Below are positions 20,427 to 43,108 of a stretch of 64,000 nt of DNA, piece by piece. The notes under the pieces were generated by a model that ran no database searches, was not told the DNA's origin, and saw nothing but the letters and a program-made list of their open reading frames with translations. Source of the DNA: Rhodospirillaceae bacterium. GTDB taxonomy: Bacteria; Pseudomonadota; Alphaproteobacteria; Rhodospirillales; Rhodospirillaceae. Position 1 is the stretch's first letter. Each line of letters begins with the position of its first letter. The DNA is taken from the NCBI GenBank assembly GCA_028822445.1, contig JAPKDQ010000009.1, positions 6,501 through 70,500 of the forward strand, given 5' to 3'. Made by a program: the position numbers and the translations under genes.

Positions 20427-20437
20427 AGGTACTGCCC

Positions 20438-22402: not shown

Positions 22403-23962
22403 ATGTTTGAGCGTTGTATGTCTGAACACGTTGGTTTGCGTCTGATCACAAAAGGTATGTTGATTGCGGCATTCGCATCGCTGCAGTTTTTCTTTGTTTG
22501 CGGCCAAGCCTTTGCCAATAGCACGATATTGCGCGTCGGTTTTCCGGTCGCGGCTGCAACGGGCGGCTATCCGTTCGGGCGCGACGATGGTGGCGGTCTT
22601 AGATTCTCATTTTATGACGGTTTAACTCGTTTTTCCCCAACGGGTGAGTTGCAATCGGCACTGGCCGATTCTTGGCAAAACGAGACGCCAACGACGTGGG
22701 TATTTCAGCTTAAAGAGGGCGTTGTGTTTAGCAATGGCGAACCGTTTGATGCGCACTCCGTCGTTGCCACCTTGACCGAACTCTACAACCCCGGTGTTCT
22801 ACATCCAAAGAAAGCCGATATGGGGGCAATCAGCGGGTACCGTGCGCGCGCGCGCTACACCGTTGAGATTGTGACATCTGAACCCGACCCTTTGGTCCCC
22901 AATCGCATGGCCCAGCTTCCTATGATCGAGCCGAAAGCCTGGGCCTCGATGGGCAAGGATGCATATGCCCGAACGCCGATTGGAACCGGGCCTTACACTG
23001 TTGAATCTTGGGGGCCGAATAACACCAAACCCGTTTTGGTCGTGGCGGAAACGTCTTGGCGCAAAGTGAAGCACATTACGCGGGTGGAAATGACCGTCAT
23101 TCCCGACCCTGGAACGCGTGTCGGCGGGCTTCTATCTGAAGAATTAGACATGGCGATTAGTTTGGCTAGCGATGATATAGCGATGCTGGAAGCCAACGAT
23201 ATAACTGTCCAGATGACAACGAATCCAAGCATCCTATCCATTGCATTCGTAACTGTACGCAATGATGAATCGCCGATTAAGAATGCGCGTGTCCGGCAGG
23301 CGCTAAACTATGCGGTCGACAAGCAATCCATTGCAGATTTTATTTTGGGTGGAACTAGTCGTGTCGCGCACCAGCCGTCCACGCCTGAACTCATAGGCTA
23401 CAATCCCGAAGCTGAGCCTTTTTATTACAATCCTGAGAAGGCGAAGCAGTTGCTTGCAGAGGCAGGTTACCCAGATGGGTTTCCGCTCAAGTTTTACGTA
23501 TATGGCGGTGTTCTGCCGGGCGATACGCTGATTTTCCAGAAGCTAGCACAAGACCTGGCAGCCATAGGCGTGAAGGTCGAATTACGACAGATATCATTTC
23601 CTGATTATGTCCGCCGGTTATTCAATGCGGACTGGGAAGGCATCGATGGCTTCTCAATGGGATGGTTGAACATGCAGCTCTGGGACCCACAGAAATCGTT
23701 CGAGCAGTTTTCTTGCATGTACTCTGCACCATTCTTTTGCGATGAAAGTATGATGACCCTCATAGACGGTGCCCGCACAGAAATGGACGCGGTCAAACGA
23801 GAATCTTTACTCAAGAACATTGTCTTGAGATTTAGGGATCAAGCACCCGCTTTATGGCTAGTGGAATTTGCTGGCGCCAATGGGCTGCAACCCAATTACA
23901 AAGTTGGTCTGTTTCGGCTTGATGGCAGCGTGTACGAGCAGATCGAATATATCGGAGACTAA
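22403..23962 (+). CDS. ABC-type solute-binding protein, family 5, orphan
   Basis: PIGTGPYTVESW motif and a signal-like N-terminus. Paralogous to 18900-20426 and 61089-62606, including the shared FSC....PFFC cysteine pair. Confidence 0.85.
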   Translation: MFERCMSEHVGLRLITKGMLIAAFASLQFFFVCGQAFANSTILRVGFPVAAATGGYPFGRDDGGGLRFSFYDGLTRFSPTGELQSALADSWQNETPTTWVFQLKEGVVFSNGEPFDAHSVVATLTELYNPGVLHPKKADMGAISGYRARARYTVEIVTSEPDPLVPNRMAQLPMIEPKAWASMGKDAYARTPIGTGPYTVESWGPNNTKPVLVVAETSWRKVKHITRVEMTVIPDPGTRVGGLLSEELDMAISLASDDIAMLEANDITVQMTTNPSILSIAFVTVRNDESPIKNARVRQALNYAVDKQSIADFILGGTSRVAHQPSTPELIGYNPEAEPFYYNPEKAKQLLAEAGYPDGFPLKFYVYGGVLPGDTLIFQKLAQDLAAIGVKVELRQISFPDYVRRLFNADWEGIDGFSMGWLNMQLWDPQKSFEQFSCMYSAPFFCDESMMTLIDGARTEMDAVKRESLLKNIVLRFRDQAPALWLVEFAGANGLQPNYKVGLFRLDGSVYEQIEYIGD

Positions 23963-24882
23963 CCCGCTTTCCTTGCCAACTTGCTGAACAGAGCGTCTTC
24001 ATTCACCGTATCCCGGCGTTGTGCCTTCCATGTGGTCGCAAAACCATTTGGATAGTTAGCGTCGCCGTCTCGTTTTCCGTCTTCGGACCACAACATGGGG
24101 AACAAGGCACCCGCTGGCGGGTTACCTTCGACCATTTCATCAAATGACACTCCGGCAATGTTAAGGCAGTCCGGGCGTGGGGCCCACCGAATGTCATCGC
24201 CAAAAATGCGAGCAGATATAGCGATGCGCCAGTCTTCACTGGTGTTGCCCGATGAGTAATGAAGCGTCCACGGGTGTAAGACCAACATGTCGCCCGGATC
24301 CATTTCCCAATTTAGAAAGTGCGCATCTGGGTCGGCACGCAGCTTCGCCTCATCGGGGTGAGGCGCCCTGTCATCGGGCTTGATCATCTTGCGGGCATTG
24401 GGTGAGAAAAGCCAATAGGGTACGTCTTGTGATTGAGACCCAGCTAGGACTTCTAAGGAGTTTTCCGGAGAGACTGTGTTCAAAGGAATCCACAGTGACG
24501 GGACCATGCGACCAGACACAGGCCAGCCCATGCGGTCGCAATGCCACAGCGTTTTAGACTCTGACCGCGGTGGTTTGGCAAAAATTTCTTCAAAGAAAAA
24601 GCGCGCCGTCTTCGATCCAATCACCTCAGCCGCTGCCTGTCCCATGGGTGAGTCGAAAATAAATCGACGAAATTCCGGAATAATCCGAGACATATATCTG
24701 CCGGGTGCGGATGGAAGTAGACCAATGTCTTCTTCGTCGACGGAAATTCGCAGCGCCGTAGGTTGCATACTTTTCATCCAGTCAGGATCAAAGACTTTGC
24801 GCAGGCATACAACGCCGTCGCGTGCATATGTTTCGCGGTCTTCATCGTTGATGGCGCGAAGAGGTTCAGCGTTAAAGCCCAT
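23959..24882 (-). CDS. Phytanoyl-CoA dioxygenase (PhyH) family Fe(II)/2-oxoglutarate oxygenase
   Basis: N-terminal F..DGVVCLRKVF, H-x-D (WHCDRM) and distal His (LHPWTLHYS), consistent with the PhyH facial triad. Confidence 0.8.
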   Translation of the reverse strand: MGFNAEPLRAINDEDRETYARDGVVCLRKVFDPDWMKSMQPTALRISVDEEDIGLLPSAPGRYMSRIIPEFRRFIFDSPMGQAAAEVIGSKTARFFFEEIFAKPPRSESKTLWHCDRMGWPVSGRMVPSLWIPLNTVSPENSLEVLAGSQSQDVPYWLFSPNARKMIKPDDRAPHPDEAKLRADPDAHFLNWEMDPGDMLVLHPWTLHYSSGNTSEDWRIAISARIFGDDIRWAPRPDCLNIAGVSFDEMVEGNPPAGALFPMLWSEDGKRDGDANYPNGFATTWKAQRRDTVNEDALFSKLARKAG

Positions 24883-24992: not shown

Positions 24993-26582
24993 CTAAAGCC
25001 CTAGTGCGCCAGGGTTTAAGAGATTATCCGGGTCGATTATTGACTTTACCCGTTTGACCAAATTGAGGGTCATTTCAGATCGATCTCGCGTGTAGGGATA
25101 GGCTTTACCAATCTGCAAATGTACACCGCTGTGATCGTGCATAATTGTCACCATCTCTTCAAACATCTCTTTCGCTAATAAGCGACCGCGCTCGTTGGGC
25201 GCGTTCTCACGCATGGGCGCCAATAATTTTTCGGGCGTGTTGCGTTCATGAAAAATATTCGGTTGATCCGGCCAATAGAGAACCGGCTCGTACAAAAAGC
25301 CGTTGGTGCTCAGTGTACCAAAGATGGAGGGGGTCGTCATTTTAAGCGCGTCCATTTCCGCTTTCCGTTTTTGAAAATAGGACTCTAGGGCAGTATGAAA
25401 TGCCACCACCTTCGAGAATGGCAAGATCGCATGGAGAGGTAACATGCGTTTCGCATCCATGCCGACGACGGGGTAGGGCATGAATGGTGTTGCACGCATC
25501 ACCGTGGGCATGGTGTTTGGAATATCACGGCCTAAACCGCCAACGGCATCACTGACGGTTTGTATGTGCCCTTTAAGCTCAGTTGGGTTGTCGGCCTCGA
25601 CGGCGCAGTGAACAAAGCACTCCGAGTTCGACGACCAGCGGCGTCCTGACAGAGCCATCTTTGCGACTTGAAGCAGGCCGCTCAAGACACCGCCAGACGC
25701 TGTGCCCACGTCGTACATGATTCTAAGGTCTTCCCACAGCCCTTTGCTCGCAATTGCACCCTCCATTGCACGTCGGGTGAACCCAAAGACTTCTGTGGCG
25801 CGGTTCGACGCTGCAATGGCCGCCAAAGCTTTATGGGTATCCTCAAAGGTGTCAAATCCAAACGACAGGCCTTGTGTGAACCTTGCCCTGCGTTGGAGGC
25901 GCAGTGTAATGGTTGCTTTAATGCCCAAGGCGCCCGCATCACCGCAGAATAAACCTGTTAAATCTGGTCCGTAGTTCCTGAAGAACGGCGATTTACCATT
26001 TTGCGCAGCAGAACCAGTTGCGAACACAGTGCCGTCCGCGGTGACAATCTCCATACCAAGAACAGCTTCAGCTGATATGCCATCTTTTGAAGACCCAAGG
26101 CTTGCCGCGCCCTGTGATATTCCGCCGCCAATAGTTGCTTTGAAGCCCGATAGCGGCCCCCAGAACTCAGCGCGCACGCCATGGGGCGCTAGGGCATTAT
26201 CCAAAGCCTCCCACGTGCACCCGGCCTGCACCGTTACGAACATATCTTCCGTGCTGATCTCCAAGACCTGGTTTAAGCCTGATGTGTCCAGAGACACGCC
26301 ATTGGGGCAGGTCGGCAGATAGGCGTCTGTGTAAGAATATCCACCGCCTCGTGGGAAGATGGCGATGCCTGCGGTCGTTAAAACCTTTACCGTCTTGGCA
26401 AGGTGTCTAATGGATGTCGGTCGGATAACCGCGGCTACGGTTGGTCCTGTCGCAAAGACGTCCTGCGAATGATAAGCGCATGTGACTGGGTCTGTAATGA
26501 CTGCACCGTCACCGATGGCCTGGCGCGTTACGGCCAGGGCTTTATCGATCACGTCACTATGAACAGGGGTAATGTTCGTCAC
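24993..26582 (-). CDS. FAD-binding oxidoreductase (PCMH / FAD_binding_4 type)
   Basis: PRGGGYSYT and TVQAGCTWEAL motifs. 529 aa. Paralogue of 51589-53034. Confidence 0.85.
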   Translation of the reverse strand: MTNITPVHSDVIDKALAVTRQAIGDGAVITDPVTCAYHSQDVFATGPTVAAVIRPTSIRHLAKTVKVLTTAGIAIFPRGGGYSYTDAYLPTCPNGVSLDTSGLNQVLEISTEDMFVTVQAGCTWEALDNALAPHGVRAEFWGPLSGFKATIGGGISQGAASLGSSKDGISAEAVLGMEIVTADGTVFATGSAAQNGKSPFFRNYGPDLTGLFCGDAGALGIKATITLRLQRRARFTQGLSFGFDTFEDTHKALAAIAASNRATEVFGFTRRAMEGAIASKGLWEDLRIMYDVGTASGGVLSGLLQVAKMALSGRRWSSNSECFVHCAVEADNPTELKGHIQTVSDAVGGLGRDIPNTMPTVMRATPFMPYPVVGMDAKRMLPLHAILPFSKVVAFHTALESYFQKRKAEMDALKMTTPSIFGTLSTNGFLYEPVLYWPDQPNIFHERNTPEKLLAPMRENAPNERGRLLAKEMFEEMVTIMHDHSGVHLQIGKAYPYTRDRSEMTLNLVKRVKSIIDPDNLLNPGALGL

Positions 26583-26605: not shown

Positions 26606-27691
26606 CTATGCTGGCTTCGTCGCAACGATGGTTTGTAAAAACCCGTTAGAGTTCTTCGGTCCAGGTTTCACATTAAATCCGGCATCTTTGAGTTCTTTGT
26701 GGAAGTCCATGTAGACAAAGCCCGGAGAGTAGGGTTCGCAATTATTGATGGAGTCATAGTCGATCATCCACCGCTGTGAGGCTGGCATGTTTGGTCCCGC
26801 GCTTGGGAACTCGTAAATACAGAAGGTGCCGCCAGGCCGCAGAATACGGAACATCTCCTTGACCGTTTCTTTAATCACCCGGACCGGAATCTCATGGAAC
26901 AAGATGTATGATAAAACCATATCGAACTTGTCAGCATCAATTTTGGTTTCTTCTGATAGGCCTTGAACGAAGTTAACATCGACCCCGCGTTTTACCGCTT
27001 GCCAGTGGGCGTACTTAACCATCGGCAACCCGACATCTAAGCCGGTTATTTCTGAGTCGGGATAGCGGTCTTTGAGGATTAAAGTGCACTGGCCAATGCT
27101 GCAGGCCAGGTCGAGAATTTTATCGACTTTGCCGTCTTCTGGTGGGGTTAGCGTATCGACAATTTCCGCATGAAGTTCGTCTTGGTCATTGGCGCCAGCG
27201 TAGAAAACTTTAGTACCATAATGGTACACGATGCCCCCGATGGGGTCGTCCGTGTAGCCGCCCGGTTGAAGGTGAATTTCACGGCGGGCGTAATTCGGCA
27301 CTTTAAAATTCGGATCAAGGGTCAGTTTGCCAGGGCCTTTGTTCTGGGCGTCATCCATGGCGTTGACTAAATCGTCCTGAAACGGCTCAAAGGAGCCTCG
27401 TGTCCGACGCCACATCATTTCCTGGTGGGTGCGCATGTAGCGCTGCCAGGTGGCCGGCAGAGGCAATTTGTTGATCACCTCTTTGATATCTTTGATATCG
27501 GTCGTGTCGTTGGTTTCGCCCAGGGCTTCAGCCACAGCCTTCTCACCTTCGGCGGCGACGGTCGCAAAGGTACCGTATCCGGCAATGCCGCGGAATGTTT
27601 CTACGAAATCGAGGTAACTCTCGTCCGATAGTCTGGTCGTGCGCGGTAAAATGCCGTTGTAGCCACGGGATAAGGCGACAGAGGTACTCAT
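26606..27691 (-). CDS. Class I SAM-dependent methyltransferase with ~180-aa N-terminal extension (cassette copy 1)
   Basis: Motif I variant ILDLACSIGQCT, post-I GLDVG and LRPGG. N-terminal region has IHLQPGGYT. Start overlaps the stop of the upstream small gene (ATGA at 27688-27691). Paralogue of 38947-40134. Confidence 0.8.
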   Translation of the reverse strand: MSTSVALSRGYNGILPRTTRLSDESYLDFVETFRGIAGYGTFATVAAEGEKAVAEALGETNDTTDIKDIKEVINKLPLPATWQRYMRTHQEMMWRRTRGSFEPFQDDLVNAMDDAQNKGPGKLTLDPNFKVPNYARREIHLQPGGYTDDPIGGIVYHYGTKVFYAGANDQDELHAEIVDTLTPPEDGKVDKILDLACSIGQCTLILKDRYPDSEITGLDVGLPMVKYAHWQAVKRGVDVNFVQGLSEETKIDADKFDMVLSYILFHEIPVRVIKETVKEMFRILRPGGTFCIYEFPSAGPNMPASQRWMIDYDSINNCEPYSPGFVYMDFHKELKDAGFNVKPGPKNSNGFLQTIVATKPA

Positions 27692-28053
27692 GATTGTTCT
27701 CCTGGTTCATCTGCAGGGTCCATGCCGAATTTAACGTCAACTGAGCCGCGAGACATGCGCCTAAACACATTTGACACAAGTTCAGCGCGCTCGGCGGCGC
27801 GCGCGGCATTGTCTTCTGGGGTGGGCTCGTAAGCTTCGATCAGCGCGCTAATGTTCTTGCCATTGCCTACAACGTCTTGCAACACGCGCTCGAGGATCAT
27901 TGAGCGATCCCGGTAGGTCCATACGGCCGCTGTTAATTCCAGCAAGGACTCATGGAGGTTATCGATTACTTGGTTGTCGAAGAACTGCTTGCCGGCGCCG
28001 TTTATTTCGTCGCCGAATACGAAGCGGGGGTCTTCTGGGGGCATGTTGTCCAT
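27688..28053 (-). CDS. Small (121 aa) acidic protein of unknown family (cassette copy 1)
   Basis: ORF with tight coupling on both sides (12 nt after the MFS stop, ATGA overlap with the MTase). Distant but recognisable similarity to 38596-38937 (FD.., ERVL/ERLL, A(Y/F)(E/R)P, RAEL/REAL, SNVF/SNRVF). Confidence 0.6.
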   Translation of the reverse strand: MDNMPPEDPRFVFGDEINGAGKQFFDNQVIDNLHESLLELTAAVWTYRDRSMILERVLQDVVGNGKNISALIEAYEPTPEDNAARAAERAELVSNVFRRMSRGSVDVKFGMDPADEPGEQS

Positions 28054-28065
28054 CTGTCTCTTCCT

Positions 28066-29436
28066 TTACGCGAGTTCTGCATCAATTTTACGAATATGTT
28101 CAGCATAGGGTTTCTTGCCGTAGAACAATATGGCGGCACCAATCAGCATGACGGTTGGGCAAACAACGCTGATTGAGTAACGAATAAGGTTTGGGTCGCC
28201 TAGAACATAGTCTGTGAAGACTGCCACTAAAAATGGCCCTCCGCCTTGACCTATGACATTAGCCACAAGAAGATATATAGCGACCATTTGCCCTCGCAGC
28301 CTGTTAGGCACAATCAACGGCAGGGCAGACGGCCCAGTGCCAAAGGGCATGGTGCCAAAGAAGACGACAGGCGCGAGTAAAATCAGCGACAGATCTTTGT
28401 CGGGAACTAGGGTGAAGGTGGCGAGAAACGGCGTTGCTAAAAGGGCGGAGATAAATCCGGCGCGCATATTTGAATCATTGTAGCCGCGACCCTTAAGCCA
28501 GTCTGAAAATAGCCCCCCGGTTACTACACCGGCGGAACCCAGGGTTACGAAATAGAGTCCAAAAATACTACCGATCTCGCCCGCCGTCATACCGTGGGTG
28601 CGCATAAAATAAGCTGGGACCCAGGCGCTGACTGAAAACATTGCAACGGTTAAGAATGTAAAGCCGAAGACAACAGGCAAGATCACTGTGTTATGGTCGA
28701 CTAAATATTGCCACGCCTGACCCAAAGAGAGGGCCTCATCTGTATGGCTGGCGGTTTTTGGCGTTGGAGTTCCAAGGCGTGGAGGTTCCCTTACCAGTAG
28801 CCATACGATCAGTGCAAATATAAGCCCGGGGATAGACACAATCAGAAAGGTCATTTGCCAAGGCCGAATGGTCCCTAGTAGCCCCATATCAACCGGGCCG
28901 ATTTCTGTCATTTTGCTAATCACAAAGCCACCGACCAGCAGCGCAATTCCAGTGCCGAGAAAACTTGATCCCGTGAACACGCTCAACGCCCGCGTGAGAC
29001 TCTTGCGCGGGAAGTAGTCAGCGAGCATAGAAAACCCAGCCGGAGACAAAGTCGCTTCGCCAACCCCAACCATCATCCGCGCTATAAACAATTGCCAAAA
29101 TACTTTCGCGAGGCCGCAGATGGTCGTGGCGATGGACCACAGCACCATACCCGCAAGAATGATGGTCTTACGATTTTTGGAATCGACCAGTCGCCCCATG
29201 GGAATGGCCGCAGCGCTATAGAACAACGCGAACGCAAACCCTTGCAGCAAACTCACCTGCGTATCAGAAATGCCCAAATCTTCTTTGATCGGGTCTACCA
29301 AAAGGCTAATGATTTGGCGATCAATAAAAGAAATAATTGCAGCTAGACACAACATAAGAACCACGAACCAGGCATATCCGTCGGTTCGAAACGCGAAGTT
29401 TGGATCAGGCTTGGTCTCGCTCGTTACGTCATTCAT
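28066..29436 (-). CDS. MFS transporter (anion/organic-acid permease-like)
   Basis: 456 aa, about 12 TM helices. MFS signature GRLVDSKNRK after TM2. Confidence 0.85.
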   Translation of the reverse strand: MNDVTSETKPDPNFAFRTDGYAWFVVLMLCLAAIISFIDRQIISLLVDPIKEDLGISDTQVSLLQGFAFALFYSAAAIPMGRLVDSKNRKTIILAGMVLWSIATTICGLAKVFWQLFIARMMVGVGEATLSPAGFSMLADYFPRKSLTRALSVFTGSSFLGTGIALLVGGFVISKMTEIGPVDMGLLGTIRPWQMTFLIVSIPGLIFALIVWLLVREPPRLGTPTPKTASHTDEALSLGQAWQYLVDHNTVILPVVFGFTFLTVAMFSVSAWVPAYFMRTHGMTAGEIGSIFGLYFVTLGSAGVVTGGLFSDWLKGRGYNDSNMRAGFISALLATPFLATFTLVPDKDLSLILLAPVVFFGTMPFGTGPSALPLIVPNRLRGQMVAIYLLVANVIGQGGGPFLVAVFTDYVLGDPNLIRYSISVVCPTVMLIGAAILFYGKKPYAEHIRKIDAELA

Positions 29437-29445: not shown

Positions 29446-31035
29446 CTAGCCAGCAATTAGGTCGGCGGCTTTCTCGCCGATCATCAGTGCAGTTGCATTG
29501 GTGTTGCCGCTAATAAGGTCAGGCATAATGGACGCGTCGGCAACACGCAGGCCGTCTACGCCACGGACCTTTAAATCAGGCGTCACCACAGAATCAGAAT
29601 CTGATCCCATGCGGCAGGTGCCGACGACATGGTAGCCAAGAAACGCGGTCTTGCGGAGGAACGCAGCCCACTCATCGTCACTCTGTACATCTTCGCCTGG
29701 CAGGAGTTCAGCTGTACGGTGTTGGGCAAAAGCAGGGCCAGATAATAGTTGTCGCACAGACCGGCACCCTTCGATCAGTTTCACCAAGTCTTCTTCATTG
29801 TCAAAAAGATTATGGGTGATGATTGGCGACGCCAACGGGTCGTTCGACTTTAACCTCACAGTGCCGCGTGTCTTGGGGTAGGCGATATTGACGGCAGCCG
29901 AAATCGCGGGCTTATCGTGGGGAATGACCCCATTCTCATCAAAGCTAAAGGCGTAGGGCCCCAGTTGAATTTGCAAGTCAGCGTAATTCTGAGCGGGGTC
30001 CGATTTGGTGAATGCTACAGCATGCGGGTAGGGGCTGGTTGCTGGTCCGCGACCGAATAGCAACCAATTAGCGGCATGCAGGATAATCTTCCAGCTGTTG
30101 ATTTCTGTATTGTAGGTCGACTGGTTGACCTCAATACTCACCATGCCCTCGGGATGTTCTTGCAAGTTTTGTCCGACGCCGGGTGCATTGTGTCTCACAT
30201 CGATGCCATGGTTTTTCAAGTCTTCTTCCGGACCGATGCCACTGAGCATGAGTATTTTCGGTGTTGAAAGTGTGCCAGCGCTGATCGTCACACTGGCGCT
30301 TGCTTTTACCGTTTTGACCGAGGCGCCCTTTTGGTAACGAACGCCGGTACATCGCGATCCGTCAAAGGTCAGGTTTGTCACCATAGCCCTGGTTATAATC
30401 TTAAGGTTGCGTGGTTTTTTCCCTGGCCACAGATAGGCACGGGCAGCGTGATAGCGCCATCCCCGGGACTGGGTTACTTGGCTATAGGCGACACCAAGTT
30501 GTTCGACACCGTTGTAGTCCTCGTTGAAGGGTATGCCGGACTCTTTTGCGGCCTCAACAAACACATGGGCGAGCGGATGCGTGGTGCGCAAATGGTTAAC
30601 GTTTATAGGGCCGGTGCGGCCTCGTACCGCATGGTCACCAATCAAGGTTTGTTCAAGCCTTTTAAATACAGGGAGGAGGTCATCATAGGCCCACCCGGCA
30701 CACCCGTTCTCTGCCCAACGGTTGTAGTCATGGGCCTGGCCTCTAACGTAAAGCATGCCATTAATGGAGCTGGAGCCTCCAAGAACTTTTCCAGCAGGCC
30801 ATAGATCAACTTTGCCATTTCGACTTTGGTCTGGTTCAGCCATATGCATCCAATCCAGACTTGGATTGCCCATGGCCTTTATGATGGCGGCAGGAACGTG
30901 AATGAACGGAGAAAAGTCACGCCCACCGGCTTCAAGCAGCAGAACTGTTTCCGCCGGTCGGTGTTTGGCTAGGCGATACCCCAGCGCAGACCCTGCAGAT
31001 CCACCGCCGATTATGATGTGGTCAAATGATGTCAT
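29446..31035 (-). CDS. GMC-family FAD oxidoreductase (choline/alcohol dehydrogenase-like)
   Basis: FDHIIIGGGSAGSALGYRLA FAD motif and C-terminal HVVGTCRMG...ADASIMP. ATG at 31035 overlaps the LysR stop (ATGA). Confidence 0.9.
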   Translation of the reverse strand: MTSFDHIIIGGGSAGSALGYRLAKHRPAETVLLLEAGGRDFSPFIHVPAAIIKAMGNPSLDWMHMAEPDQSRNGKVDLWPAGKVLGGSSSINGMLYVRGQAHDYNRWAENGCAGWAYDDLLPVFKRLEQTLIGDHAVRGRTGPINVNHLRTTHPLAHVFVEAAKESGIPFNEDYNGVEQLGVAYSQVTQSRGWRYHAARAYLWPGKKPRNLKIITRAMVTNLTFDGSRCTGVRYQKGASVKTVKASASVTISAGTLSTPKILMLSGIGPEEDLKNHGIDVRHNAPGVGQNLQEHPEGMVSIEVNQSTYNTEINSWKIILHAANWLLFGRGPATSPYPHAVAFTKSDPAQNYADLQIQLGPYAFSFDENGVIPHDKPAISAAVNIAYPKTRGTVRLKSNDPLASPIITHNLFDNEEDLVKLIEGCRSVRQLLSGPAFAQHRTAELLPGEDVQSDDEWAAFLRKTAFLGYHVVGTCRMGSDSDSVVTPDLKVRGVDGLRVADASIMPDLISGNTNATALMIGEKAADLIAG

Positions 31036-31943
31036 GCAGCAAGCGCGGGCCAATCTGAGAACGACGCGCGGGCTGCTTCAATAAAGTGCTGAACTGCTGG
31101 GCGACGGGCTTCTGAATAGCGCAAAATAAGACCTGATGATCGTTCAAAGGTCGCGCCCTTCAATTCTAAGCATTTTATCCGGCCACCTGCTATGTCCTCT
31201 TCGAGGAGATGCTCTGGCAAGATGCTCGCGTAATTACCGGACAGAACGAGTGAGCGGAGGAGGGAGAGAGAGTTAGTTTCAATTGCCGGCCGACCCATTG
31301 TCAAATTCTCTGTCGCAAATAGGTCGGCGAGCAACGACGACACATGCGCTTGGCGCACAAGTGCGAGGTTACAGCCTCTTACATCGGCCCAGGTGGTGCG
31401 TGACTTTCTGGCTAAGGGATGACCTGCGCTGATGACGAATTGAGATCGCACGGTTATCAGCGGCTCGAAGACTAACTCTTCATCAGCTATACCCGGCGGA
31501 AAATTCGTGATCAGGGCTTCGACGTGCGCGGTCTTTAGGTCCATGATGAGGTCTTCATAAAACCCCTCGGTGACGTTGAGGGTAAGGCCTGGAACTGCTT
31601 TGGCGAGACGGACCAACACCTTAGCCATGGGATCTCCTGCAAACATTGCTGCAACGCCAATATTGAGGGAGCCTAGCTCGCCCTTGGCCGTTGCGGTGAC
31701 GTCGCTTGCTGTGTTCTCTGTCTCATTCAAAATCATCTTGGCTCGATGGTAGAGCCGCGTTCCGGCCTCAGTCGGCGCGATGCCGCGCGGCTGTCGTTCT
31801 AGAAGTTTTGCGTGCAGTCGGGCTTCTAGGTTTTTGATGCTGCGGGTCAGAGCGGGCTGGGTGATGCACAAAACAACGGCGGCGGCGGATACTGTTCCAC
31901 TCTCTATGACGGCGACAAAATGCCGCAATTGCTTAAATTCCAT
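31032..31943 (-). CDS. LysR-family transcriptional regulator
   Basis: MEFKQLRHFVAVIESGTVSAAAVVLCITQPALTRSIKNLE HTH. 303 aa. Confidence 0.9.
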   Translation of the reverse strand: MEFKQLRHFVAVIESGTVSAAAVVLCITQPALTRSIKNLEARLHAKLLERQPRGIAPTEAGTRLYHRAKMILNETENTASDVTATAKGELGSLNIGVAAMFAGDPMAKVLVRLAKAVPGLTLNVTEGFYEDLIMDLKTAHVEALITNFPPGIADEELVFEPLITVRSQFVISAGHPLARKSRTTWADVRGCNLALVRQAHVSSLLADLFATENLTMGRPAIETNSLSLLRSLVLSGNYASILPEHLLEEDIAGGRIKCLELKGATFERSSGLILRYSEARRPAVQHFIEAARASFSDWPALAA

Positions 31944-35510: not shown

Positions 35511-35540
35511 CTGACTCATCTCTAACCGTTTGTGTATAAT
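35511..35540 (+). promoter_or_regulatory. Sigma70-like promoter candidate (CTGACT-N18-TGTG-TATAAT, extended -10)
   Basis: Read from the sequence in a 270-bp AT-rich gap. The -10 ends about 25 nt upstream of ATG 35566, which is preceded by GGAGA. Confidence 0.35.
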
Positions 35541-35565
35541 CACCGCGACTGAATTGGAGAGTGTC

Positions 35566-38595: not shown

Positions 38596-38937
38596 TTATA
38601 TGTTGTCTCCGGGTGCATCCCCTGGGATCGCCTTTTCAGCGCGCTCGGCTTGTTGCAAGAGCAGGTAAAATACTCGGTTGCTGATGTCCTCGCGTAAGGC
38701 TTCTCGATCAGTGGTAGCGGCCTCATCTGGTCTGAACGCGTTCACATCAGACTGGTTCAGAATACCCTTTGACTCAAGGAGGCGCTCTACTGCATCTAAA
38801 CGTTGACGAGTGACGATCAGTTCATTGAGAAGCGAGACATTCATCGACAACAAAATATCATTCGCTTCATCGTCGAACATCATCGGTCTCGGACCTTTGG
38901 CAACCCGCGGCAATTTGACTTTCTGTTCGTCACTCAT
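38596..38937 (-). CDS. Small (113 aa) acidic protein of unknown family (cassette copy 2)
   Basis: Starts 9 nt after the MTase stop (TAG-GGGGCGGCT-ATG). Similar to 27688-28053. Confidence 0.6.
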   Translation of the reverse strand: MSDEQKVKLPRVAKGPRPMMFDDEANDILLSMNVSLLNELIVTRQRLDAVERLLESKGILNQSDVNAFRPDEAATTDREALREDISNRVFYLLLQQAERAEKAIPGDAPGDNI

Positions 38938-38946: not shown

Positions 38947-40134
38947 CTATTCTTTGATGCCAATAATAAATGCCATCCCAAGAGGTGATCCCGGAGGTGC
39001 ACCATGTCCAGCGGACCGCGATGTTTCAATAGCGGCATCAATCTTGGCTTGATCCTTACCCCCTTTGACCTGAGAGAAATCTCGGATCACGTTCTCAGGT
39101 AAGAAGCCGGCATCGATCGTGACTTTTTTGAGGTCCAATGTTCGGAATTTTGTCCAAAATGGTTCGTTATTGTAGTGGGTTTCATTGGTGTAGATGAACT
39201 GCCGGTAGGGATCGATTTCGTTAAGCTGAGGCAGATCTGCATGAATCATAATTCCACCTGGGCTAAGAAGGCGGTGGCATTCCTTGATGATTGCGGGCCA
39301 AGCCTTGGTTGACGTTTCATGGGCTAATATGTTTGATGTTATGATGTCAAAGCTACCATCTTCGAATTTGGTATGCTCAGCCGACTGTTGAGAGAAGTGT
39401 ATTTTGTGGCCTAGGGCTTCTGCGCGTGCATGGCCGTAGCGCAGCAGCGCGGGCCCGAGGTCGATGGCGTAAACGTCTGCTTGTGGCCACCGGTTTACGT
39501 AGGCCGCTGTGCTCTGGCCAATGGTGCATCCCATATCAAGAACGCGGGCCGGCTTGAGGTTGGGGAATATGGCGTCTAGGTATTGCGTTACAATACGGCC
39601 TGCCATGTCTGTCATGCCGCTGCTGCCACTATTATAGATATGAATGGCGCGATCATAAATTGCTCCAGCCGCGATATCATCTTCGCAGTGCTCGGCGGTA
39701 AAGCCACCGGGCTGGCAGTGAATATCCACCGCCGTAACATAGCGTGGCAGTTCCAGATCCGGGTCCAGTTCTAGGGTCCCAAGATTCTGTTCCATGTTCT
39801 TCGATCGTTTGATGAGGTCGGGCAGTTGTTCCTCGACCGGAGTGACGAGAGATTCAAACATCAGCTCCTGGACTACGCGATGGAACCCCATTTGGAATTT
39901 CATATATGTGCCCTTGAGCATTTCTTTACGAATTTGTCGGTACTCGTTTAAGGGGGTGCCTGTTTTTTTTTCATAGGCTGGTTTGATTTCACGATAGAAT
40001 TGCTGACGGCTTCCAGCCGCGAATTTACGGAGGAGTGACTGCCTCAGCGTGCGAACATTGTTTTGGCGTTCCGCTTCGTCATGGCTCCGGTTCGTCATCA
40101 TGCCGTGTTCATGCTGGGCTTCAGGCATCATCAT
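38947..40134 (-). CDS. Class I SAM-dependent methyltransferase with long N-terminal extension (cassette copy 2)
   Basis: VLDMGCTIGQST (motif I variant), IDLGP, LSPGG. N-terminal IHCQPGGFT. Paralogue of 26606-27691. Confidence 0.8.
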   Translation of the reverse strand: MMMPEAQHEHGMMTNRSHDEAERQNNVRTLRQSLLRKFAAGSRQQFYREIKPAYEKKTGTPLNEYRQIRKEMLKGTYMKFQMGFHRVVQELMFESLVTPVEEQLPDLIKRSKNMEQNLGTLELDPDLELPRYVTAVDIHCQPGGFTAEHCEDDIAAGAIYDRAIHIYNSGSSGMTDMAGRIVTQYLDAIFPNLKPARVLDMGCTIGQSTAAYVNRWPQADVYAIDLGPALLRYGHARAEALGHKIHFSQQSAEHTKFEDGSFDIITSNILAHETSTKAWPAIIKECHRLLSPGGIMIHADLPQLNEIDPYRQFIYTNETHYNNEPFWTKFRTLDLKKVTIDAGFLPENVIRDFSQVKGGKDQAKIDAAIETSRSAGHGAPPGSPLGMAFIIGIKE

Positions 40135-40370: not shown

Positions 40371-40838
40371 TTATTGAACTTGGCGGGCCATCGCGCCCAT
40401 GATTTTCCAGTCTCCATCGGTATCTTTCACCCAAACATGGATGGTGTGATATCGCTGATTCACCTCAGTGCCATCCGGCGCGACCGTTCGGTGCGTGTTG
40501 TAATAGATGACACCCGTGTTGCCGTGCATGGCGAAATCATCAAAGTACAATTCTAATTTTTCTGAGTTCGGAAACCTAAATAGGCCAGACTCCTGATTTT
40601 TTTTGAGTTGAGAAATAGGCGATGGCTTCGGTGTACCAGGGGGCCACCCAACATAGTTCGGTGATGAATTTTCGATATAGTAATCGAGGCCCGTTTTGGC
40701 GCGTGCTTTGTAGATGGCCTGTTCTTTTGCCCAAACAATTTTCTTTGCTTCTTCATATTCCCTGGCAGATTGTGCCTGAGACACGTTTGCCGGTCCCATC
40801 GCAATGATGGCGAGTGCGAGAAGTATAATACGGATCAT
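40371..40838 (-). CDS. Secreted DUF4440/SnoaL-like (NTF2-fold) protein
   Basis: Signal peptide MIRIILLALAIIAMGPANVSQA. C-terminal HTIHVWVKDTDGDWKIMGAMA is typical of the NTF2-like fold. Paralogue of 45607-46140. Confidence 0.6.
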   Translation of the reverse strand: MIRIILLALAIIAMGPANVSQAQSAREYEEAKKIVWAKEQAIYKARAKTGLDYYIENSSPNYVGWPPGTPKPSPISQLKKNQESGLFRFPNSEKLELYFDDFAMHGNTGVIYYNTHRTVAPDGTEVNQRYHTIHVWVKDTDGDWKIMGAMARQVQ

Positions 40839-42151: not shown

Positions 42152-42259
42152 GCAGAAAAACTCCAAAGTTTATGTGTGTGAACGTATATATGACTATGCC
42201 ATAGTTACTCAATATTGGTCCATGCCGCTGGGCGATGACAGGCTTTAAGCGGCTGTGTT

Positions 42260-43108
42260 CTAAGTATTTCGCCGCCAAGTGGTCGGGAAGAGTTGCGCCG
42301 GAAGGGGCTCGCCTTCTTTTATGTCCGGGCTATTCTGGAACGGTGATTTTTTTGAGGTCGGGTTATTCTCGTATCTGATGTCACTCCCAAGCCACCGGAG
42401 TGAAAACGCAACTCGGCGCCCAAATTGACCAGCGGTTCTGGGGAGGGACGCGTGGATGGTCTTTGGATGGATAATCAGCATATCGCCGGCTTTAACTTCC
42501 CAAACACGAATGTCTGCATATGGTGCGTGAACGCGTTCTAAGAGCTCCTCCCATGTATGGAAATTCGGTGGCGGTTTAACACCGTCGAGCGCCCATGAGC
42601 TGACATAACGATGCGCATCTTTGTTTGAACCAGAGAGTGTTTGTACTGGAGCGTTGTTTAGGTCGACGTCTGTTAGTGCTATCCACATGGACGGAGCATG
42701 GTGCCCTCGTAACGGAAAAAGACATTCGTCATTATGCCACGGCGTGGCGGTTGCTTCGTCTTCTCCCTCTTTAAGGAATGTTCCGTCAGTCCAAGGTTGC
42801 ATAGTATCTGACCCAATGACGTCGGCGACGATCTGGGCACAGTCGGAATGTTCGACTAAATTGCGCATCTCAGGTAAACGCGGATACAAATTGACTAGCC
42901 GGACATAGCCATCATGATCTTCGTATTGAATATCCGGCATCATCTCTTGGGGACCGAACGCTATAGTGCCGGTGCGTATGCCTAAGATAGCGTCGTCAAT
43001 AACCTTGGTCATGCCGGCGACCCACTCTTGCGTCATTGCACCGACGACGTGTGTTACGCCAACTTCGTTATAGGTCTCTATGATGTCTTGAGTGACTTTT
43101 GGATGCAT
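42260..43108 (-). CDS. Phytanoyl-CoA dioxygenase (PhyH) family Fe(II)/2-oxoglutarate oxygenase
   Basis: H-x-D (PWHNDE) and distal His (IIHPKTIHAS). Paralogue of 23959-24882. Confidence 0.8.
   Translation of the reverse strand: MHPKVTQDIIETYNEVGVTHVVGAMTQEWVAGMTKVIDDAILGIRTGTIAFGPQEMMPDIQYEDHDGYVRLVNLYPRLPEMRNLVEHSDCAQIVADVIGSDTMQPWTDGTFLKEGEDEATATPWHNDECLFPLRGHHAPSMWIALTDVDLNNAPVQTLSGSNKDAHRYVSSWALDGVKPPPNFHTWEELLERVHAPYADIRVWEVKAGDMLIIHPKTIHASLPRTAGQFGRRVAFSLRWLGSDIRYENNPTSKKSPFQNSPDIKEGEPLPAQLFPTTWRRNT

What the first reader, a model, noticed from the sequence alone, without database searches (positions are those of the whole stretch)
26606..28053. Recurrent cassette: atypical SAM-methyltransferase plus ~115-aa protein of unknown family, present twice with swapped gene order
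Copy 1 is the small gene 27688-28053 followed by MTase 26606-27691, with an ATGA overlap. Copy 2 is MTase 38947-40134 followed by the small gene 38596-38937, with a 9-nt spacer containing GGGG.

The two MTases are clear paralogues. They share a non-canonical motif I ((I/V)LD(L/M)(A/G)C(S/T)IGQ(C/S)T instead of the usual GxGxG). They also share an N-terminal extension of about 180 aa with IH(L/C)QPGG(Y/F)T.

The two small proteins are diverged (rough visual estimate of 20-25% identity, not computed) but align along their length: FD(N/D), ..LL.EL.., R.R, ER(V/L)L, A(Y/F)(E/R)P, R(A/E)(E/A)L, SN(V/R)(V)F, and acidic tails. I recognise no known domain in them.

Persistent tight coupling despite inverted order argues for a functional pair (obligate partner, substrate, carrier or regulator of the MTase) rather than a recent segmental duplication. 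Both copies lie near PhyH-type oxygenase genes.
Basis: partly seen in the sequence, partly recalled or inferred. Interest (0 to 1): 0.8.

Follow-up and report, generated by a model that had tools for sequence, protein, structure and literature searches.

The report
Methyltransferase with obligate small helical partner
The two gene pairs are real and belong to a very widespread but undescribed bacterial two-gene module: a roughly 385-residue SAM-dependent methyltransferase that almost always sits next to a roughly 110-residue helical protein of unknown family, most likely its non-catalytic partner subunit.

Summary

- **The two pairs.** MT1 and MT2 are 30% identical (E 6e-37). S1 and S2 are 23% identical (E 0.003), and their homology holds at profile level (hhalign 92.6%, E 4.6e-7; the S2-family HMM hits S1 at 1.2e-6).
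- **Linkage from the methyltransferase side.** In 80 of 80 species-representative genome loci, spanning cyanobacteria, Binatia, Proteobacteria, an actinomycete, Myxococcota and others, a small-protein gene lies on the same strand close to the methyltransferase gene, abutting it in 79. Order is MT then S in 82 pairs and S then MT in 8.
- **Linkage from the small-protein side.** In metagenome contigs, 94 of 103 small-protein genes have an adjacent methyltransferase. Eight lie too near a contig end to assess, and one is the second gene of a tandem.
- **Co-evolution.** Distances in the two families correlate (r = 0.86), and paralogous pairs duplicate as units.
- **The small protein.** It matches nothing in Pfam, NCBIfam or PDB. 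The model shows a disordered conserved N-terminal motif followed by a helical hairpin.
- **The methyltransferase.** It has a SAM-binding core plus an unmatched N-terminal helical hairpin.
- **Neighbours.** They are catabolic: hydantoinase A/B, FAD oxidases, aldehyde dehydrogenases, hydrolases and transporters.

The best model is a heteromeric small-molecule methyltransferase. The substrate is unknown, and I found no published characterisation.

The parts
27688..28053 (-). S1: small partner protein, 121 aa. A divergent member of the small helical-hairpin family; its stop codon overlaps the MT1 start (ATGA).
   Evidence: ORF and translation. Junction. Own subfamily of 38 clusters in marine alphaproteobacterial MAGs. 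Homology to the S2 family: hhalign 92.6%, E 4.6e-7; HMM E 1.2e-6.
26606..27691 (-). MT1: class I SAM-dependent methyltransferase, 361 aa. A divergent member of the roughly 385-aa family with the N-terminal extension.
   Evidence: Pfam Methyltransf_25/11 at residues 192-292. 30% identical to MT2, E 6e-37. Family HMM E 3e-121, positions 3-348.
38947..40134 (-). MT2: class I SAM-dependent methyltransferase, 395 aa. A canonical member of the family (motifs DIHCQPGG, LDMGCTIG, HET, NNEPFW).
   Evidence: AF2 model: pLDDT 91.6, with an N-terminal helical hairpin (H17-57, H75-111) plus a Rossmann core. Foldseek matches only the core, to NovO/CouO, PMT and RebM, with TMq at most 0.44.
38596..38937 (-). 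S2: small partner protein, 113 aa. A canonical member of the small family, 9 nt downstream of MT2.
   Evidence: AF2 model: residues 1-22 are disordered and carry the conserved RVAKGxRPxxFDD motif; helices at 23-55, 61-65 and 71-102. No PDB fold match.
24993..26582 (-). FAD_binding_4 (GlcD / D-lactate dehydrogenase-like) flavoprotein, immediately downstream of MT1. A recurrent neighbour of the module.
   Evidence: Pfam PF01565. Partial GlcD and PDB matches. The same cluster (c14) lies next to MT-S in 12 of 84 loci, and also in L179, L180 and pJE1.
23959..24882 (-). PhyH-family Fe(II)/2-oxoglutarate dioxygenase, the last gene of operon 1.
   Evidence: Pfam PF05721. Also present downstream of the S1-type pair in L180.
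28066..29436 (-). MFS transporter (organic-anion, D-galactonate-transporter-like), upstream of S1.
   Evidence: Pfam MFS_1. NCBIfam TIGR00893, partial match.
29446..31053 (-). GMC oxidoreductase (choline-dehydrogenase-like), operon 1.
   Evidence: Pfam GMC_oxred_N/C. NCBIfam choline dehydrogenase subfamily, 517 bits, below the cutoff of 605.
31032..31943 (-). LysR-type regulator at the head of operon 1.
   Evidence: Pfam HTH_1 plus LysR_substrate.
40371..40838 (-). SnoaL/DUF4440-like small protein, upstream of MT2.
   Evidence: Pfam DUF4440, weak.
40850..42166 (-). Beta-lactamase-family serine hydrolase, operon 2. It recurs upstream of MT-S in sphingomonads.
   Evidence: Pfam PF00144. Cluster c34 in L049, L060, L069, L075 and L080.
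42260..43108 (-). PhyH-family dioxygenase, operon 2.
   Evidence: Pfam PF05721.
43218..44105 (-). Alpha/beta hydrolase, operon 2. A recurrent neighbour.
   Evidence: Pfam Abhydrolase_1. Cluster c16 in 11 loci.

Best explanation
Each cassette encodes a two-subunit SAM-dependent methyltransferase.

The large protein carries a normal SAM-binding Rossmann core. It also has a family-specific N-terminal helical hairpin and a conserved lid containing NNEPFW. The small protein is a non-catalytic partner made in fixed proportion to it. This is inferred from the overlapping or near-abutting coding regions.

I infer that the small protein's disordered, conserved N-terminal motif (AKGxRPxYFDDP in the main family) docks on the enzyme. 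I also infer that its helical hairpin packs against the enzyme's helical elements, so completing, capping or oligomerising the active enzyme.

The window holds two ancient paralogous holoenzymes. Each is embedded in its own operon for uptake and oxidation of small organic acids or amines:

- **Operon 1:** LysR, GMC oxidase, anion MFS transporter, S1, MT1, GlcD-like flavoprotein, PhyH.
- **Operon 2:** alpha/beta hydrolase, PhyH, serine hydrolase, SnoaL-like protein, MT2, S2.

The enzymes therefore most likely methylate a small-molecule intermediate. One concrete possibility is transient methyl-esterification of a carboxylate that is later removed by the co-encoded hydrolases, as in BioC/BioH.

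**Shown:** the homology, the near-obligate linkage, the co-evolution, the fold classes and the neighbour statistics.

**Inferred:** the physical complex, the role of the motif, and the nature of the substrate.
For: **Linkage**
- 80 of 80 species-representative genome loci have a small-protein gene on the same strand close to the methyltransferase gene, abutting it in 79.
- Across 90 pairs, 82 are MT then S and 8 are S then MT. The distance from the upstream stop codon to the start of the downstream gene's HMM match is mostly between about -90 and +140 nt, with a median near 0-3.
- From the small-protein side, 94 of 103 genes in metagenome contigs have an adjacent methyltransferase, 8 cannot be assessed, and 1 is the second small-protein gene of a tandem.
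- The linkage survives inversion of gene order and spans more than ten phyla.

**Co-evolution**
- Pairwise distances of the two families correlate (r = 0.857; the maximum over 2000 permutations was 0.17).
- In genomes with two pairs, each small protein groups with the partner of the orthologous methyltransferase.
- The most divergent methyltransferase (MT1) is paired with the most divergent small protein (S1).

**Stand-alone small proteins**
- The small-protein family comprises 1554 representative clusters, all stand-alone proteins of about 90-240 aa.

**Structure**
- S2 has a disordered but conserved N-terminal motif plus a helical hairpin, and only moderate self-confidence (pTM 0.49). This is typical of a protein that folds onto a partner.
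- MT2 has a confident extra helical hairpin that no solved methyltransferase matches.

**Catalytic competence**
- The SAM-binding motifs are conserved: LDxGC..G, the acidic residue after beta2, and the HE after beta4.

**No carrier-type residue**
- The columns conserved across the small-protein family are G, P, F, D, L, E and R. No Ser, Cys or Lys is conserved.

**Context**
- Recurrent neighbours are hydantoinase A/B (22-23 of 84 loci), amine oxidase (16), FAD_binding_4 (12), aldehyde dehydrogenase (11), alpha/beta hydrolase (11), MFS (10) and CoA-transferase III (10).
- All of the main ones are united in one annotated operon on Sphingomonas sp. JE1 plasmid pJE1.

**Weak covariation**
- After correcting for column entropy, MT-S covariation is highest at methyltransferase positions about 297-340 (the lid), and next at about 68-103.
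Against: - **No direct evidence of a complex.** No multimer prediction could be run and no experiment exists.
- **Covariation is underpowered.** Neff is 84, no pair stands out (top z = 5.4), and the regional signal is only about 2 standard errors.
- **Methyltransferases without a partner.** Methyltransferase paralogues without their own adjacent small-protein gene exist next to some pairs (L019, L022, L087, L094, L179).
- **Variable stoichiometry.** S'-MT-S, S-MT-MT-S and MT-S-S arrangements occur, so a simple 1:1 heterodimer may be wrong.
- **Uninformative neighbours in Nostocales.** There the neighbours are unrelated housekeeping genes, so the catabolic context is not universal.
- **Substrate unknown.** The methyl-ester idea rests only on co-occurrence with hydrolases.
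- **Basic tails.** Some small proteins carry Lys/Ala/Pro-rich tails that a plain enzyme subunit does not obviously need.
Confidence: 0.5

Rival explanations
1. The small protein is the methyl acceptor. The pair would be a dedicated protein-methylation switch (for example on the invariant Arg, or on a conserved Glu or Asp of the helical hairpin), analogous to CheR acting on receptor hairpins, and the methylated small protein would then regulate something in the surrounding operon.
For: - The pairing is strict, one enzyme with one small protein, and the two co-evolve.
- The small protein is a helical hairpin with an invariant Arg (R45 in S2 numbering) and conserved E50, D26, R77 and R81.
- It has a disordered conserved N-terminal motif that could act as a docking peptide.
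- Tandem or flanking extra copies of the small-protein gene exist.
Against: - The small protein is conserved along its whole length rather than around one site.
- The methyltransferase's nearest structural relatives are small-molecule methyltransferases: NovO/CouO, PMT, RebM and GPP methyltransferase.
- Neither protein has a DNA-binding or signalling domain.
- The operons already encode their own LysR and IclR regulators.
- There is no CheR or protein-arginine methyltransferase family signal.
Confidence: 0.12
2. The small protein is an accessory factor that is not part of the active enzyme. It could be a folding or assembly chaperone, an inhibitor that stops wasteful SAM use until substrate appears, or an adaptor that tethers the enzyme to another component such as hydantoinase, the membrane, or a hydrophobic or polyanionic surface.
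For: - The linkage and co-evolution are as above.
- In some lineages the small protein has basic Lys/Ala/Pro-rich N-terminal tails of the histone-H1 (HC2) type, which suggest binding to a polyanion or surface.
- The number of small-protein genes per methyltransferase varies.
- The pair is often co-operonic with HyuA/HyuB.
Against: - Overlapping or near-abutting coding regions suggest translational coupling, which fits a stoichiometric subunit better than a catalytic chaperone.
- The pair persists where no hydantoinase or other constant third partner is present (Nostocales, and the window itself).
- No phasin, chaperone or antitoxin family matches.
Confidence: 0.15
3. The adjacency reflects only shared regulation in one pathway. 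The small protein would have an independent role, for example binding a ligand or intermediate, and would never touch the methyltransferase.
For: No interaction has been demonstrated. The covariation analysis was inconclusive.
Against: - Every other neighbour varies between lineages, while this one gene stays adjacent in 79 of 80 genome loci (1.5 kb downstream in the other) and 94 of 95 assessable metagenome cases, in either order and on the same strand.
- Pairs duplicate as units.
- A two-helix protein of about 110 aa has no obvious ligand pocket.
Confidence: 0.08
4. The resemblance is an artefact: chance small ORFs beside two unrelated methyltransferases, or a recent segmental duplication.
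For: Pairwise BLASTP of S1 against S2 is weak on its own (E 0.003).
Against: - The profile-level homology is significant.
- Both small ORFs have dozens of conserved orthologues, and the family has 1554 representative clusters.
- The paralogues are only 30% and 23% identical, so the duplication is ancient.
Confidence: 0.01

Closest known systems
Trm112-activated class I methyltransferases (Trm9, Trm11, Mtq2, Bud23; METTL5-TRMT112)
   Same: A class I SAM methyltransferase depends on a small non-catalytic partner that stabilises or activates it. This is the closest functional analogy to the proposed mechanism (background knowledge; reviewed in PMC5389515 and PMC6735865, which surfaced).
   Different: - Trm112 is a zinc-knuckle, beta-containing protein that extends the methyltransferase's beta-sheet. 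Here the partner is predicted to be all-helical with a disordered N-terminal motif, and it has no Trm112 or any other Pfam match.
- Trm112 serves several RNA- or protein-modifying enzymes from an unlinked gene. Here the pairing is one-to-one, the genes are adjacent, they co-duplicate, and they mostly sit in small-molecule catabolic operons.
BioC/BioH logic (carboxyl O-methylation followed by esterase removal)
   Same: A class I methyltransferase occurs together with alpha/beta-hydrolase or serine-hydrolase genes in the same operons. MT2 gives a partial hit to the BioC model (TIGR02072, E 1e-14).
   Different: The score is far below the BioC cutoff (55 against 185 bits). There is no biotin or fatty-acid synthesis context. 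BioC has no partner protein and no N-terminal extension of about 180 aa.
UbiE/COQ5 quinone C-methylases (the label given by JGI annotation) and the UbiE-family thiol methyltransferase MddH
   Same: The same Rossmann superfamily. Automated pipelines name many members 'UbiE'.
   Different: - The match covers only about 110 core residues and scores 35-41 bits against a cutoff of 158-216.
- MddH is a genuine UbiE-family protein, 37% identical to E. coli UbiE, and no partner protein is mentioned in the passages I read (PMC11445057).
- The family here has its own motifs: DIHCxPGGY, HET and NNEPFW.
Small-molecule methyltransferases NovO/CouO, phosphoethanolamine N-methyltransferase, RebM, GPP C-methyltransferase (nearest solved structures)
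   Same: The best Foldseek matches, at probability 1.0, indicating the core architecture of a small-molecule methyltransferase.
   Different: Only the core aligns (TMq 0.34-0.44, 13-19% identity). The N-terminal helical hairpin is unmatched, and none of these enzymes has a dedicated small partner.
nmp-type lactam catabolic cluster (N-methylpyrrolidone: hydantoinase-like NmpA/B, amino-acid oxidase NmpC, SSADH NmpF)
   Same: The recurrent neighbours of the module, HyuA/HyuB, an FAD amine or amino-acid oxidase and a semialdehyde dehydrogenase, form the same enzyme set. They appear together with MT-S on pJE1 (PMC12866759 and its Table S3).
   Different: The nmp cluster has no methyltransferase and no small helical protein (nmpD is a cupin, nmpE a PucR regulator). 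The window's two operons lack hydantoinase genes.
CheR and chemoreceptor helical hairpins
   Same: A class I methyltransferase acts on Glu residues of a helical hairpin and is recruited by a short docking peptide. This resembles the rival 'substrate' reading.
   Different: There is no CheR family match. The small protein is not a receptor domain, and there is no chemotaxis context.

Membership tests
Class I (Rossmann-fold) SAM-dependent methyltransferase superfamily | Significant match to class I methyltransferase domain models above the curated cutoff | tested here: met
   Methyltransf_25 scores 65.6 bits (MT1) and 75.0 bits (MT2) against a cutoff of 27. Methyltransf_11 scores 55.1 and 65.0 bits against a cutoff of 21.2.
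Class I (Rossmann-fold) SAM-dependent methyltransferase superfamily | SAM-binding motifs: motif I, an acidic residue at the end of beta2, and the motif after beta4 | tested here: met
   LD(L/M)(A/G)C(S/T)IG, (L/I)D(V/L)G and xIL(F/A)HE are present in both proteins and conserved family-wide. The central Gly of GxGxG is replaced by Thr, Ala or Ser in every sequence of the 21-sequence alignment. Actual SAM binding was not tested.
Class I (Rossmann-fold) SAM-dependent methyltransferase superfamily | Seven-stranded alpha/beta fold | tested here: met
   AF2 model with pLDDT 91.6. Foldseek gives probability 1.0 to many solved class I methyltransferases.
UbiE/MenG quinone C-methyltransferase | Score above the curated equivalog or subfamily cutoff, over the full length | tested here: not met
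   TIGR01934 scores 41 bits against a cutoff of 158. PRK00216 models score 22-40 bits against cutoffs of 216-378. Only about 110 residues align.
BioC malonyl-ACP O-methyltransferase | Score above the TIGR02072 cutoff; biotin-synthesis context | tested here: not met
   35.5 and 55 bits against a cutoff of 185. No bio genes lie nearby.
Corrinoid-protein-associated methyltransferase CpaM | Score above the NF043040 cutoff; adjacent corrinoid protein | tested here: not met
   44 and 55 bits against a cutoff of 180. No corrinoid-binding protein lies in either operon.
Trm112-methyltransferase holoenzymes | The partner belongs to the Trm112 family (zinc-knuckle, beta-strand addition) | tested here: not met
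   No Pfam or NCBIfam hit for S1, S2 or 40 diverse relatives. The predicted structure is all-helical. No PDB fold match.
Trm112-methyltransferase holoenzymes | The partner is required for solubility or activity of the methyltransferase | not testable with these tools
   This needs co-expression and activity assays. Only genomic linkage and co-evolution are available.
RiPP precursor plus tailoring methyltransferase | A short precursor with a conserved leader and hypervariable core; other RiPP maturation genes nearby | tested here: not met
   The small protein is conserved along its whole length of about 110 aa across phyla. The neighbours are catabolic enzymes and transporters, not proteases, cyclases or exporters.
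Carrier proteins (ACP/PCP, biotinyl or lipoyl) | An invariant Ser (phosphopantetheine) or Lys (biotin or lipoyl) attachment site | tested here: not met
   The invariant or nearly invariant columns are G, P, F, D, L, E, R and V. No conserved Ser, Cys or Lys.
Anti-phage defence or phage proteins | Match to PADLOC or PHROGs models | tested here: not met
   The small proteins give no hits. The methyltransferases give only generic methyltransferase-domain hits (mad2, E 1e-14 to 1e-16, over the core only).

The most novel reading that the evidence does not exclude
The pair is not an enzyme plus subunit. Instead it is a self-contained protein-methylation switch. The methyltransferase would methylate the invariant arginine, or a conserved acidic residue, of its dedicated helical-hairpin partner. 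The modified partner would then control flux or expression in the surrounding catabolic operons. That would be a widespread and previously unrecognised bacterial post-translational signalling module, present in more than ten phyla.
Probability: 0.12. Interest if true: 0.85.

Novelty: new variant of a known kind. Interest (0 to 1): 0.62.

Why it matters
- **Annotation.** Thousands of genes currently labelled 'UbiE-like' or 'class I SAM-dependent methyltransferase' belong to one coherent family: 2729 clusters at E <= 1e-5, and at least 585 loci in species-representative genomes. The family almost never occurs without a small protein that no database describes (1554 representative clusters).
- **Why the function may have been missed.** If the small protein is an obligate subunit, expressing the methyltransferase alone would give misleading negative results. 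That could explain why no function has been assigned.
- **Ecological relevance.** The module is multi-copy in the catabolic islands of abundant marine and freshwater heterotrophs, and it sits beside hydantoinase- and lactamase-type, flavin-oxidase and hydrolase genes. It may therefore mark an unrecognised methylation step in the turnover of dissolved organic acids, amines or lactams.
- **Tractable hosts.** The pair is also present in cultured isolates that should be workable, including Sphingomonas sp. JE1 (plasmid pJE1), Novosphingobium, Niveispirillum irakense, Pseudorhodoferax sp. Leaf274, Alteromonas and Nostoc. The hypothesis can be tested directly.

Tried and rejected
1. **Known family for the small protein.** Nothing significant in Pfam, NCBIfam, PADLOC or PHROGs, in a PDB sequence search with a single sequence and with a profile, or in a PDB fold search. 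The only hit was a low-complexity HC2 match in 1 of 40 relatives.
2. **Specific identity for the methyltransferase.** The UbiE, BioC, Tam, ArsM, RquA and CpaM models all score far below their cutoffs. PDB sequence and fold searches match only the core.
3. **Natural MT-S fusions**, which would prove a complex. Long ORFs spanning both genes in high-GC loci are in different frames. None of the top 150 small-protein representatives exceeds 240 aa.
4. **Inter-protein covariation** (MI with APC on 173 pairs, Neff 84). There are no outlier pairs. A weak entropy-corrected enrichment appears at methyltransferase positions about 297-340 and 68-103. I treat this as suggestive only.
5. **Literature.**
   - Searches on DUF1838 plus methyltransferase, on hydantoinase plus methyltransferase plus small subunit, and on an adjacent small obligate partner found nothing relevant.
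   - A search on pJE1 also found nothing relevant.
   - MddH was checked and is a different, UbiE-type family.
   - The nmp lactam cluster shares neighbours with the module but contains no methyltransferase. The original nmp paper is not held.
7. **PhyH as a general partner.** Rejected. PhyH is not among the recurrent neighbour clusters, although it recurs with the S1-type pair.
8. **Recent segmental duplication.** Rejected on divergence.
Full report
**1. Observation**

| Gene | Coordinates (minus strand) | Length |
|---|---|---|
| S1 | 27688-28053 | 121 aa |
| MT1 | 26606-27691 | 361 aa |
| MT2 | 38947-40134 | 395 aa |
| S2 | 38596-38937 | 113 aa |

- **Junctions.** The S1 stop overlaps the MT1 start (…TCATGA…). 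MT2 and S2 are separated by GGGGCGGCT.
- **Methyltransferases.** MT1 and MT2 are 30% identical over 281 residues (E 6e-37). Both have a class I methyltransferase domain at about residues 190-295 and roughly 180-190 N-terminal residues with no Pfam match.
- **Small proteins.** S1 and S2 are 23% identical (E 0.003 for the single comparison), which alone would be marginal.
  - I collected homologues of each: 38 clusters for S1 and 56 for S2.
  - Profile-profile comparison of the two alignments gives 92.6% probability and E 4.6e-7 over 85 columns.
  - An HMM of the S2 family picks out S1 at E 1.2e-6 from all ORFs of about 90 loci.

**2. What the pair belongs to**

- **Size and spread of the methyltransferase family.**
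  - MT2 is a typical member of a large family of proteins of about 385 aa: 2729 clusters at E <= 1e-5, many at 42-48% identity over 87-99% of the length. Members come from Rhodospirillaceae, Steroidobacteraceae, Thermodesulfobacteriota, Binatia and cyanobacteria.
  - Alignments A3 and A5 show invariant or near-invariant motifs outside the usual SAM motifs: DIHC(M/Q)PGGY, AAGAIYD, LRYAHARAE, HFSQQNAE, SxILxHET and NNEPFW. Motif I always lacks the central glycine (DMGC[TAS][VI]G).
  - MT1 is a divergent member (24-25% identical to MT2 in the alignment).
- **Linkage from the methyltransferase side.**
The 80 best span Nostocales and other cyanobacteria, Binatia, Thermodesulfobacteriota, Sphingomonadaceae, Caulobacterales, Burkholderiales, Alteromonas, Marinomonas, Niveispirillum, Myxococcota, Anaerolineaceae, Spirochaetales and the actinomycete Luedemannella.
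  - Searching stop-to-stop ORFs of these loci with the small-protein HMM gave a hit in every one of the 80 (E 1e-22 to 1e-52). All are on the same strand as the methyltransferase and abut it, except L041, where the small-protein gene lies 1.5 kb downstream.
  - Over 90 pairs, 82 are MT then S and 8 are S then MT. The distance from the upstream stop codon to the start of the downstream gene's HMM match clusters around 0-3 nt.
- **Linkage from the small-protein side.** The reciprocal test started from the small protein in metagenome contigs. Of 103 small-protein genes, 94 have an adjacent same-strand methyltransferase, 8 lie too close to a contig end to judge, and 1 is the second small-protein gene of an MT-S-S tandem.
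- **Size of the small-protein family.** An exhaustive profile search finds 1554 representative small-protein clusters (711 at E <= 1e-10). All are stand-alone proteins of about 90-240 aa.
- **Other architectures.** These include S'-MT-S (one methyltransferase flanked by two small-protein paralogues), S-MT-MT-S and MT-S-MT-S. Some pairs have a neighbouring methyltransferase paralogue without a small-protein gene of its own.

**3. Co-evolution**

- Pairwise distances among the methyltransferases and among their adjacent small proteins correlate at r = 0.857. The maximum over 2000 permutations was 0.17.
- Part of this correlation reflects species phylogeny. However, in genomes with two pairs (L023, L028, L050), each small protein's nearest relative is the partner of the orthologous methyltransferase in another genome, not the other small protein in its own genome. 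Pairs are therefore inherited and duplicated as units.
- In the window, the divergent MT1 is paired with the divergent S1. The S1 subfamily keeps its own order (S then MT, with overlapping codons) in relatives as distant as about 60% identity (L179, L180).
- A mutual-information analysis on 173 pairs (Neff 84) found no outlier contacts. After correction for column entropy, the weakly highest signal lies at methyltransferase positions about 297-340 (the lid after beta5 that carries NNEPFW), and next at about 68-103 in the N-terminal hairpin. I treat this as suggestive only.

**4. Structures**

- **S2** (AF2 with 70 sequences, pLDDT 78.7, pTM 0.49). Residues 1-22 are disordered. They carry the most conserved motif of the family, RVAKGxRPxxFDD (consensus AKGxRPxYFxDP). 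Helices follow at 23-55, 61-65 and 71-102, forming a helical hairpin. Foldseek against the PDB finds nothing (best E 4.4).
- **MT2** (pLDDT 91.6, pTM 0.92). It has a long N-terminal helical hairpin (H17-57, H75-111), a loop region bearing DIHCQPGG, and then the Rossmann core. Foldseek returns small-molecule methyltransferases (NovO/CouO, phosphoethanolamine N-methyltransferases, AtmM/RebM, GPP C-methyltransferase). Only the core aligns (TMq 0.34-0.44, 13-19% identity). PDB sequence profiles also cover only residues about 160-320.
- **Conserved columns in the small protein.** Across the small-protein family these are G, P, F, D, L, E and several R (R45 invariant). No Ser, Cys or Lys is conserved. 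This argues against a carrier protein and against Lys or Cys as a methyl acceptor.

**5. Genomic context**

In the window, both pairs sit in minus-strand catabolic operons (Pfam annotations from identical contigs; NCBIfam):

- **Operon 1:** LysR, choline-dehydrogenase-like GMC oxidase, organic-anion MFS transporter, S1, MT1, GlcD/D-lactate-dehydrogenase-like FAD_binding_4 flavoprotein, PhyH.
- **Operon 2:** alpha/beta hydrolase, PhyH, beta-lactamase-family serine hydrolase, SnoaL/DUF4440-like protein, MT2, S2.

Clustering the neighbours across 84 loci gives these recurrent partners:

| Neighbour | Loci (of 84) |
|---|---|
| Hydantoinase A/B (often MT-S-HyuA-HyuB in one operon) | 22-23 |
| Flavin amine oxidase | 16 |
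| SDR | 15 |
| FAD_binding_4 (including the window) | 12 |
| Aldehyde dehydrogenase | 11 |
| Alpha/beta hydrolase (including the window) | 11 |
| MFS transporter | 10 |
| Family III CoA-transferase | 10 |
| DUF1838-like protein (Pfam DUF1838 seen beside the pair in L094) | 10 |

Beta-lactamase-family hydrolase, LeuC/D-like dehydratase, HMG-CoA-lyase-like and isochorismatase genes also recur.

- **An annotated isolate example unites most of these.** On Sphingomonas sp. JE1 plasmid pJE1 the gene order is: class I SAM-dependent methyltransferase (WP_087573421.1), 'hypothetical protein' (WP_087573420.1), FAD-dependent oxidoreductase, FAD-binding oxidoreductase, Zn-dehydrogenase, hydantoinase A, hydantoinase B, succinate-semialdehyde dehydrogenase. 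The hypothetical protein is a small-protein family member (E 5e-28).
- **Resemblance to a known cluster.** That enzyme set resembles the nmp lactam (N-methylpyrrolidone) cluster: NmpA/B hydantoinase-type amidohydrolase, NmpC amino-acid oxidase and NmpF SSADH. The nmp cluster contains no methyltransferase (PMC12866759 and its Table S3).
- **Nostocales.** There the neighbours are unrelated housekeeping genes (TrpB, an RNase-D-like exonuclease, rhodanese).

The only constant is the pair itself.

**6. Mechanism**

- **Best-supported reading (confidence about 0.5).** The pair forms a heteromeric small-molecule SAM methyltransferase in which the small protein is an obligate non-catalytic partner. 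It is probably produced in step with the enzyme through translational coupling, inferred from the overlapping or near-abutting genes. Its conserved N-terminal peptide docks on the enzyme, and its hairpin packs against the enzyme's helical elements or lid.
- **Shown.** Homology, near-obligate linkage in both directions, co-duplication, retention of the SAM motifs, the fold classes and the neighbour statistics.
- **Inferred.** The physical complex, the role of the motif and the substrate class.
- **A specific low-confidence sub-hypothesis.** The enzyme may transiently methyl-esterify a carboxylate intermediate, for example a hydroxy acid or beta-keto acid produced or taken up by the operon's enzymes. 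The co-encoded serine or alpha/beta hydrolases would later remove the methyl group, as in BioC/BioH. This rests only on co-occurrence.
- **Rivals.**

| Rival | Confidence |
|---|---|
| The small protein is the methyl acceptor (a protein-methylation switch) | 0.12 |
| The small protein is a chaperone, inhibitor or adaptor | 0.15 |
| Co-regulation without contact | 0.08 |
| Artefact or recent duplication | 0.01 |

**7. Comparison with what is known**

- **Closest analogy.** Functionally this is the Trm112-methyltransferase system. Membership fails, because the partner is all-helical with no Trm112 signature, the pairing is one-to-one and genomically fixed, and the context is small-molecule catabolism.
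- **Other candidate families.** The 'UbiE' labels given by automated annotation are not supported: 41 bits against a cutoff of 158. BioC, Tam, ArsM, CpaM and RquA all score far below their cutoffs. MddH, a recently described marine thiol methyltransferase, is a genuine UbiE-type enzyme and a different family (PMC11445057).
- **Literature.** Full-text searches found no paper describing this pair.

**8. Verdict**

The finding is a member of a widespread, strictly coupled, uncharacterised two-gene module. It is a new variant of the known 'methyltransferase plus small partner' theme, built on an undescribed small-protein family. The substrate and the exact role of the small protein remain open, but they can be tested directly in cultured hosts.

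Noticed in passing
L122, L128, L131, L135, L139, L141, L143, L146, L152, L155, L156, L159, L168, L169, L173, L176 (S'-MT-S); L012, L145, L153 (S-MT-MT-S); L170, L171 (MT-S-S): In many contigs of the metagenome scan, one methyltransferase gene is flanked by two different small-protein paralogues: a shorter upstream one (E about 1e-20 to 1e-26) and the canonical downstream one. Other loci have two back-to-back methyltransferases bracketed by small-protein genes, or a tandem of two small-protein genes. The stoichiometry may therefore not be 1:1, and the small proteins may act as dimers.
   Followed up: partly
P0075, P0079-P0094 (alignment A2, columns 1-100); one member of alignment A6: Small-protein homologues of the group represented by a Steroidobacteraceae MAG (P0075) carry 30-90-residue Lys/Ala/Pro/Arg-rich N-terminal tails. 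One relative even matches the Pfam histone-H1-like HC2 family (E 1.9e-7). Such tails usually bind polyanions or surfaces, and the subunit model does not explain them.
   Followed up: no
L019 1862-2830(-), L022 4814-5785(-), L087 2154-3266(-), L094 7761-8849(-), L179 11393-13824(-): Additional paralogues of the same methyltransferase family lie next to a complete MT-S pair, often divergently oriented, without a small-protein gene of their own. They might share the neighbouring small protein or form mixed oligomers.
   Followed up: no
window 1-64000 overall (e.g. GMC oxidases 7194-8783 and 29446-31053; IclR 14535-15317 and 37812-38594; PhyH 23959-24882 and 42260-43108; SBP_bac_5 about 18900-20546 and 22403-23962): The whole window is a catabolic island built from repeated gene families: two GMC oxidases, two IclR regulators, two PhyH genes, several alpha/beta hydrolases, two orphan SBP_bac_5 binding proteins and several MFS transporters. 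The duplicated MT-S pair is part of a broader pattern of paralogous modules.
   Followed up: partly
window 15408-17741 (+): A family III CoA-transferase (CoA_transf_3) of 777 aa, about twice the usual length, is followed by an acyl-CoA dehydrogenase (17746-18903). It may be a tandem-domain fusion.
   Followed up: no
window 9850-11901 (-): A single 683-aa ORF combines E1_dh (alpha) with Transket_pyr and Transketolase_C (beta). It is a fused alpha-beta E1 component of a 2-oxoacid or acetoin dehydrogenase, and no E2 or E3 was seen beside it in the ORFs I annotated.
   Followed up: no
window 35530-37806 (+): A 758-aa molybdopterin-binding subunit of the aldehyde oxidase / xanthine dehydrogenase family (MoCoBD_1/2) is preceded by a PEP_mutase-family gene rather than by the usual 2Fe-2S and FAD subunit genes.
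   Followed up: no
window 3969-5513 (-): A 514-aa ORF with no Pfam match at E <= 1e-5.
   Followed up: no
L179 10147-11307 and 14565-15907: In a relative that carries an S1-type pair plus two further methyltransferase paralogues, IS elements (rve integrase-family transposases) are interspersed among the methyltransferase genes. This suggests that mobile elements may help to shuffle these modules.
   Followed up: no
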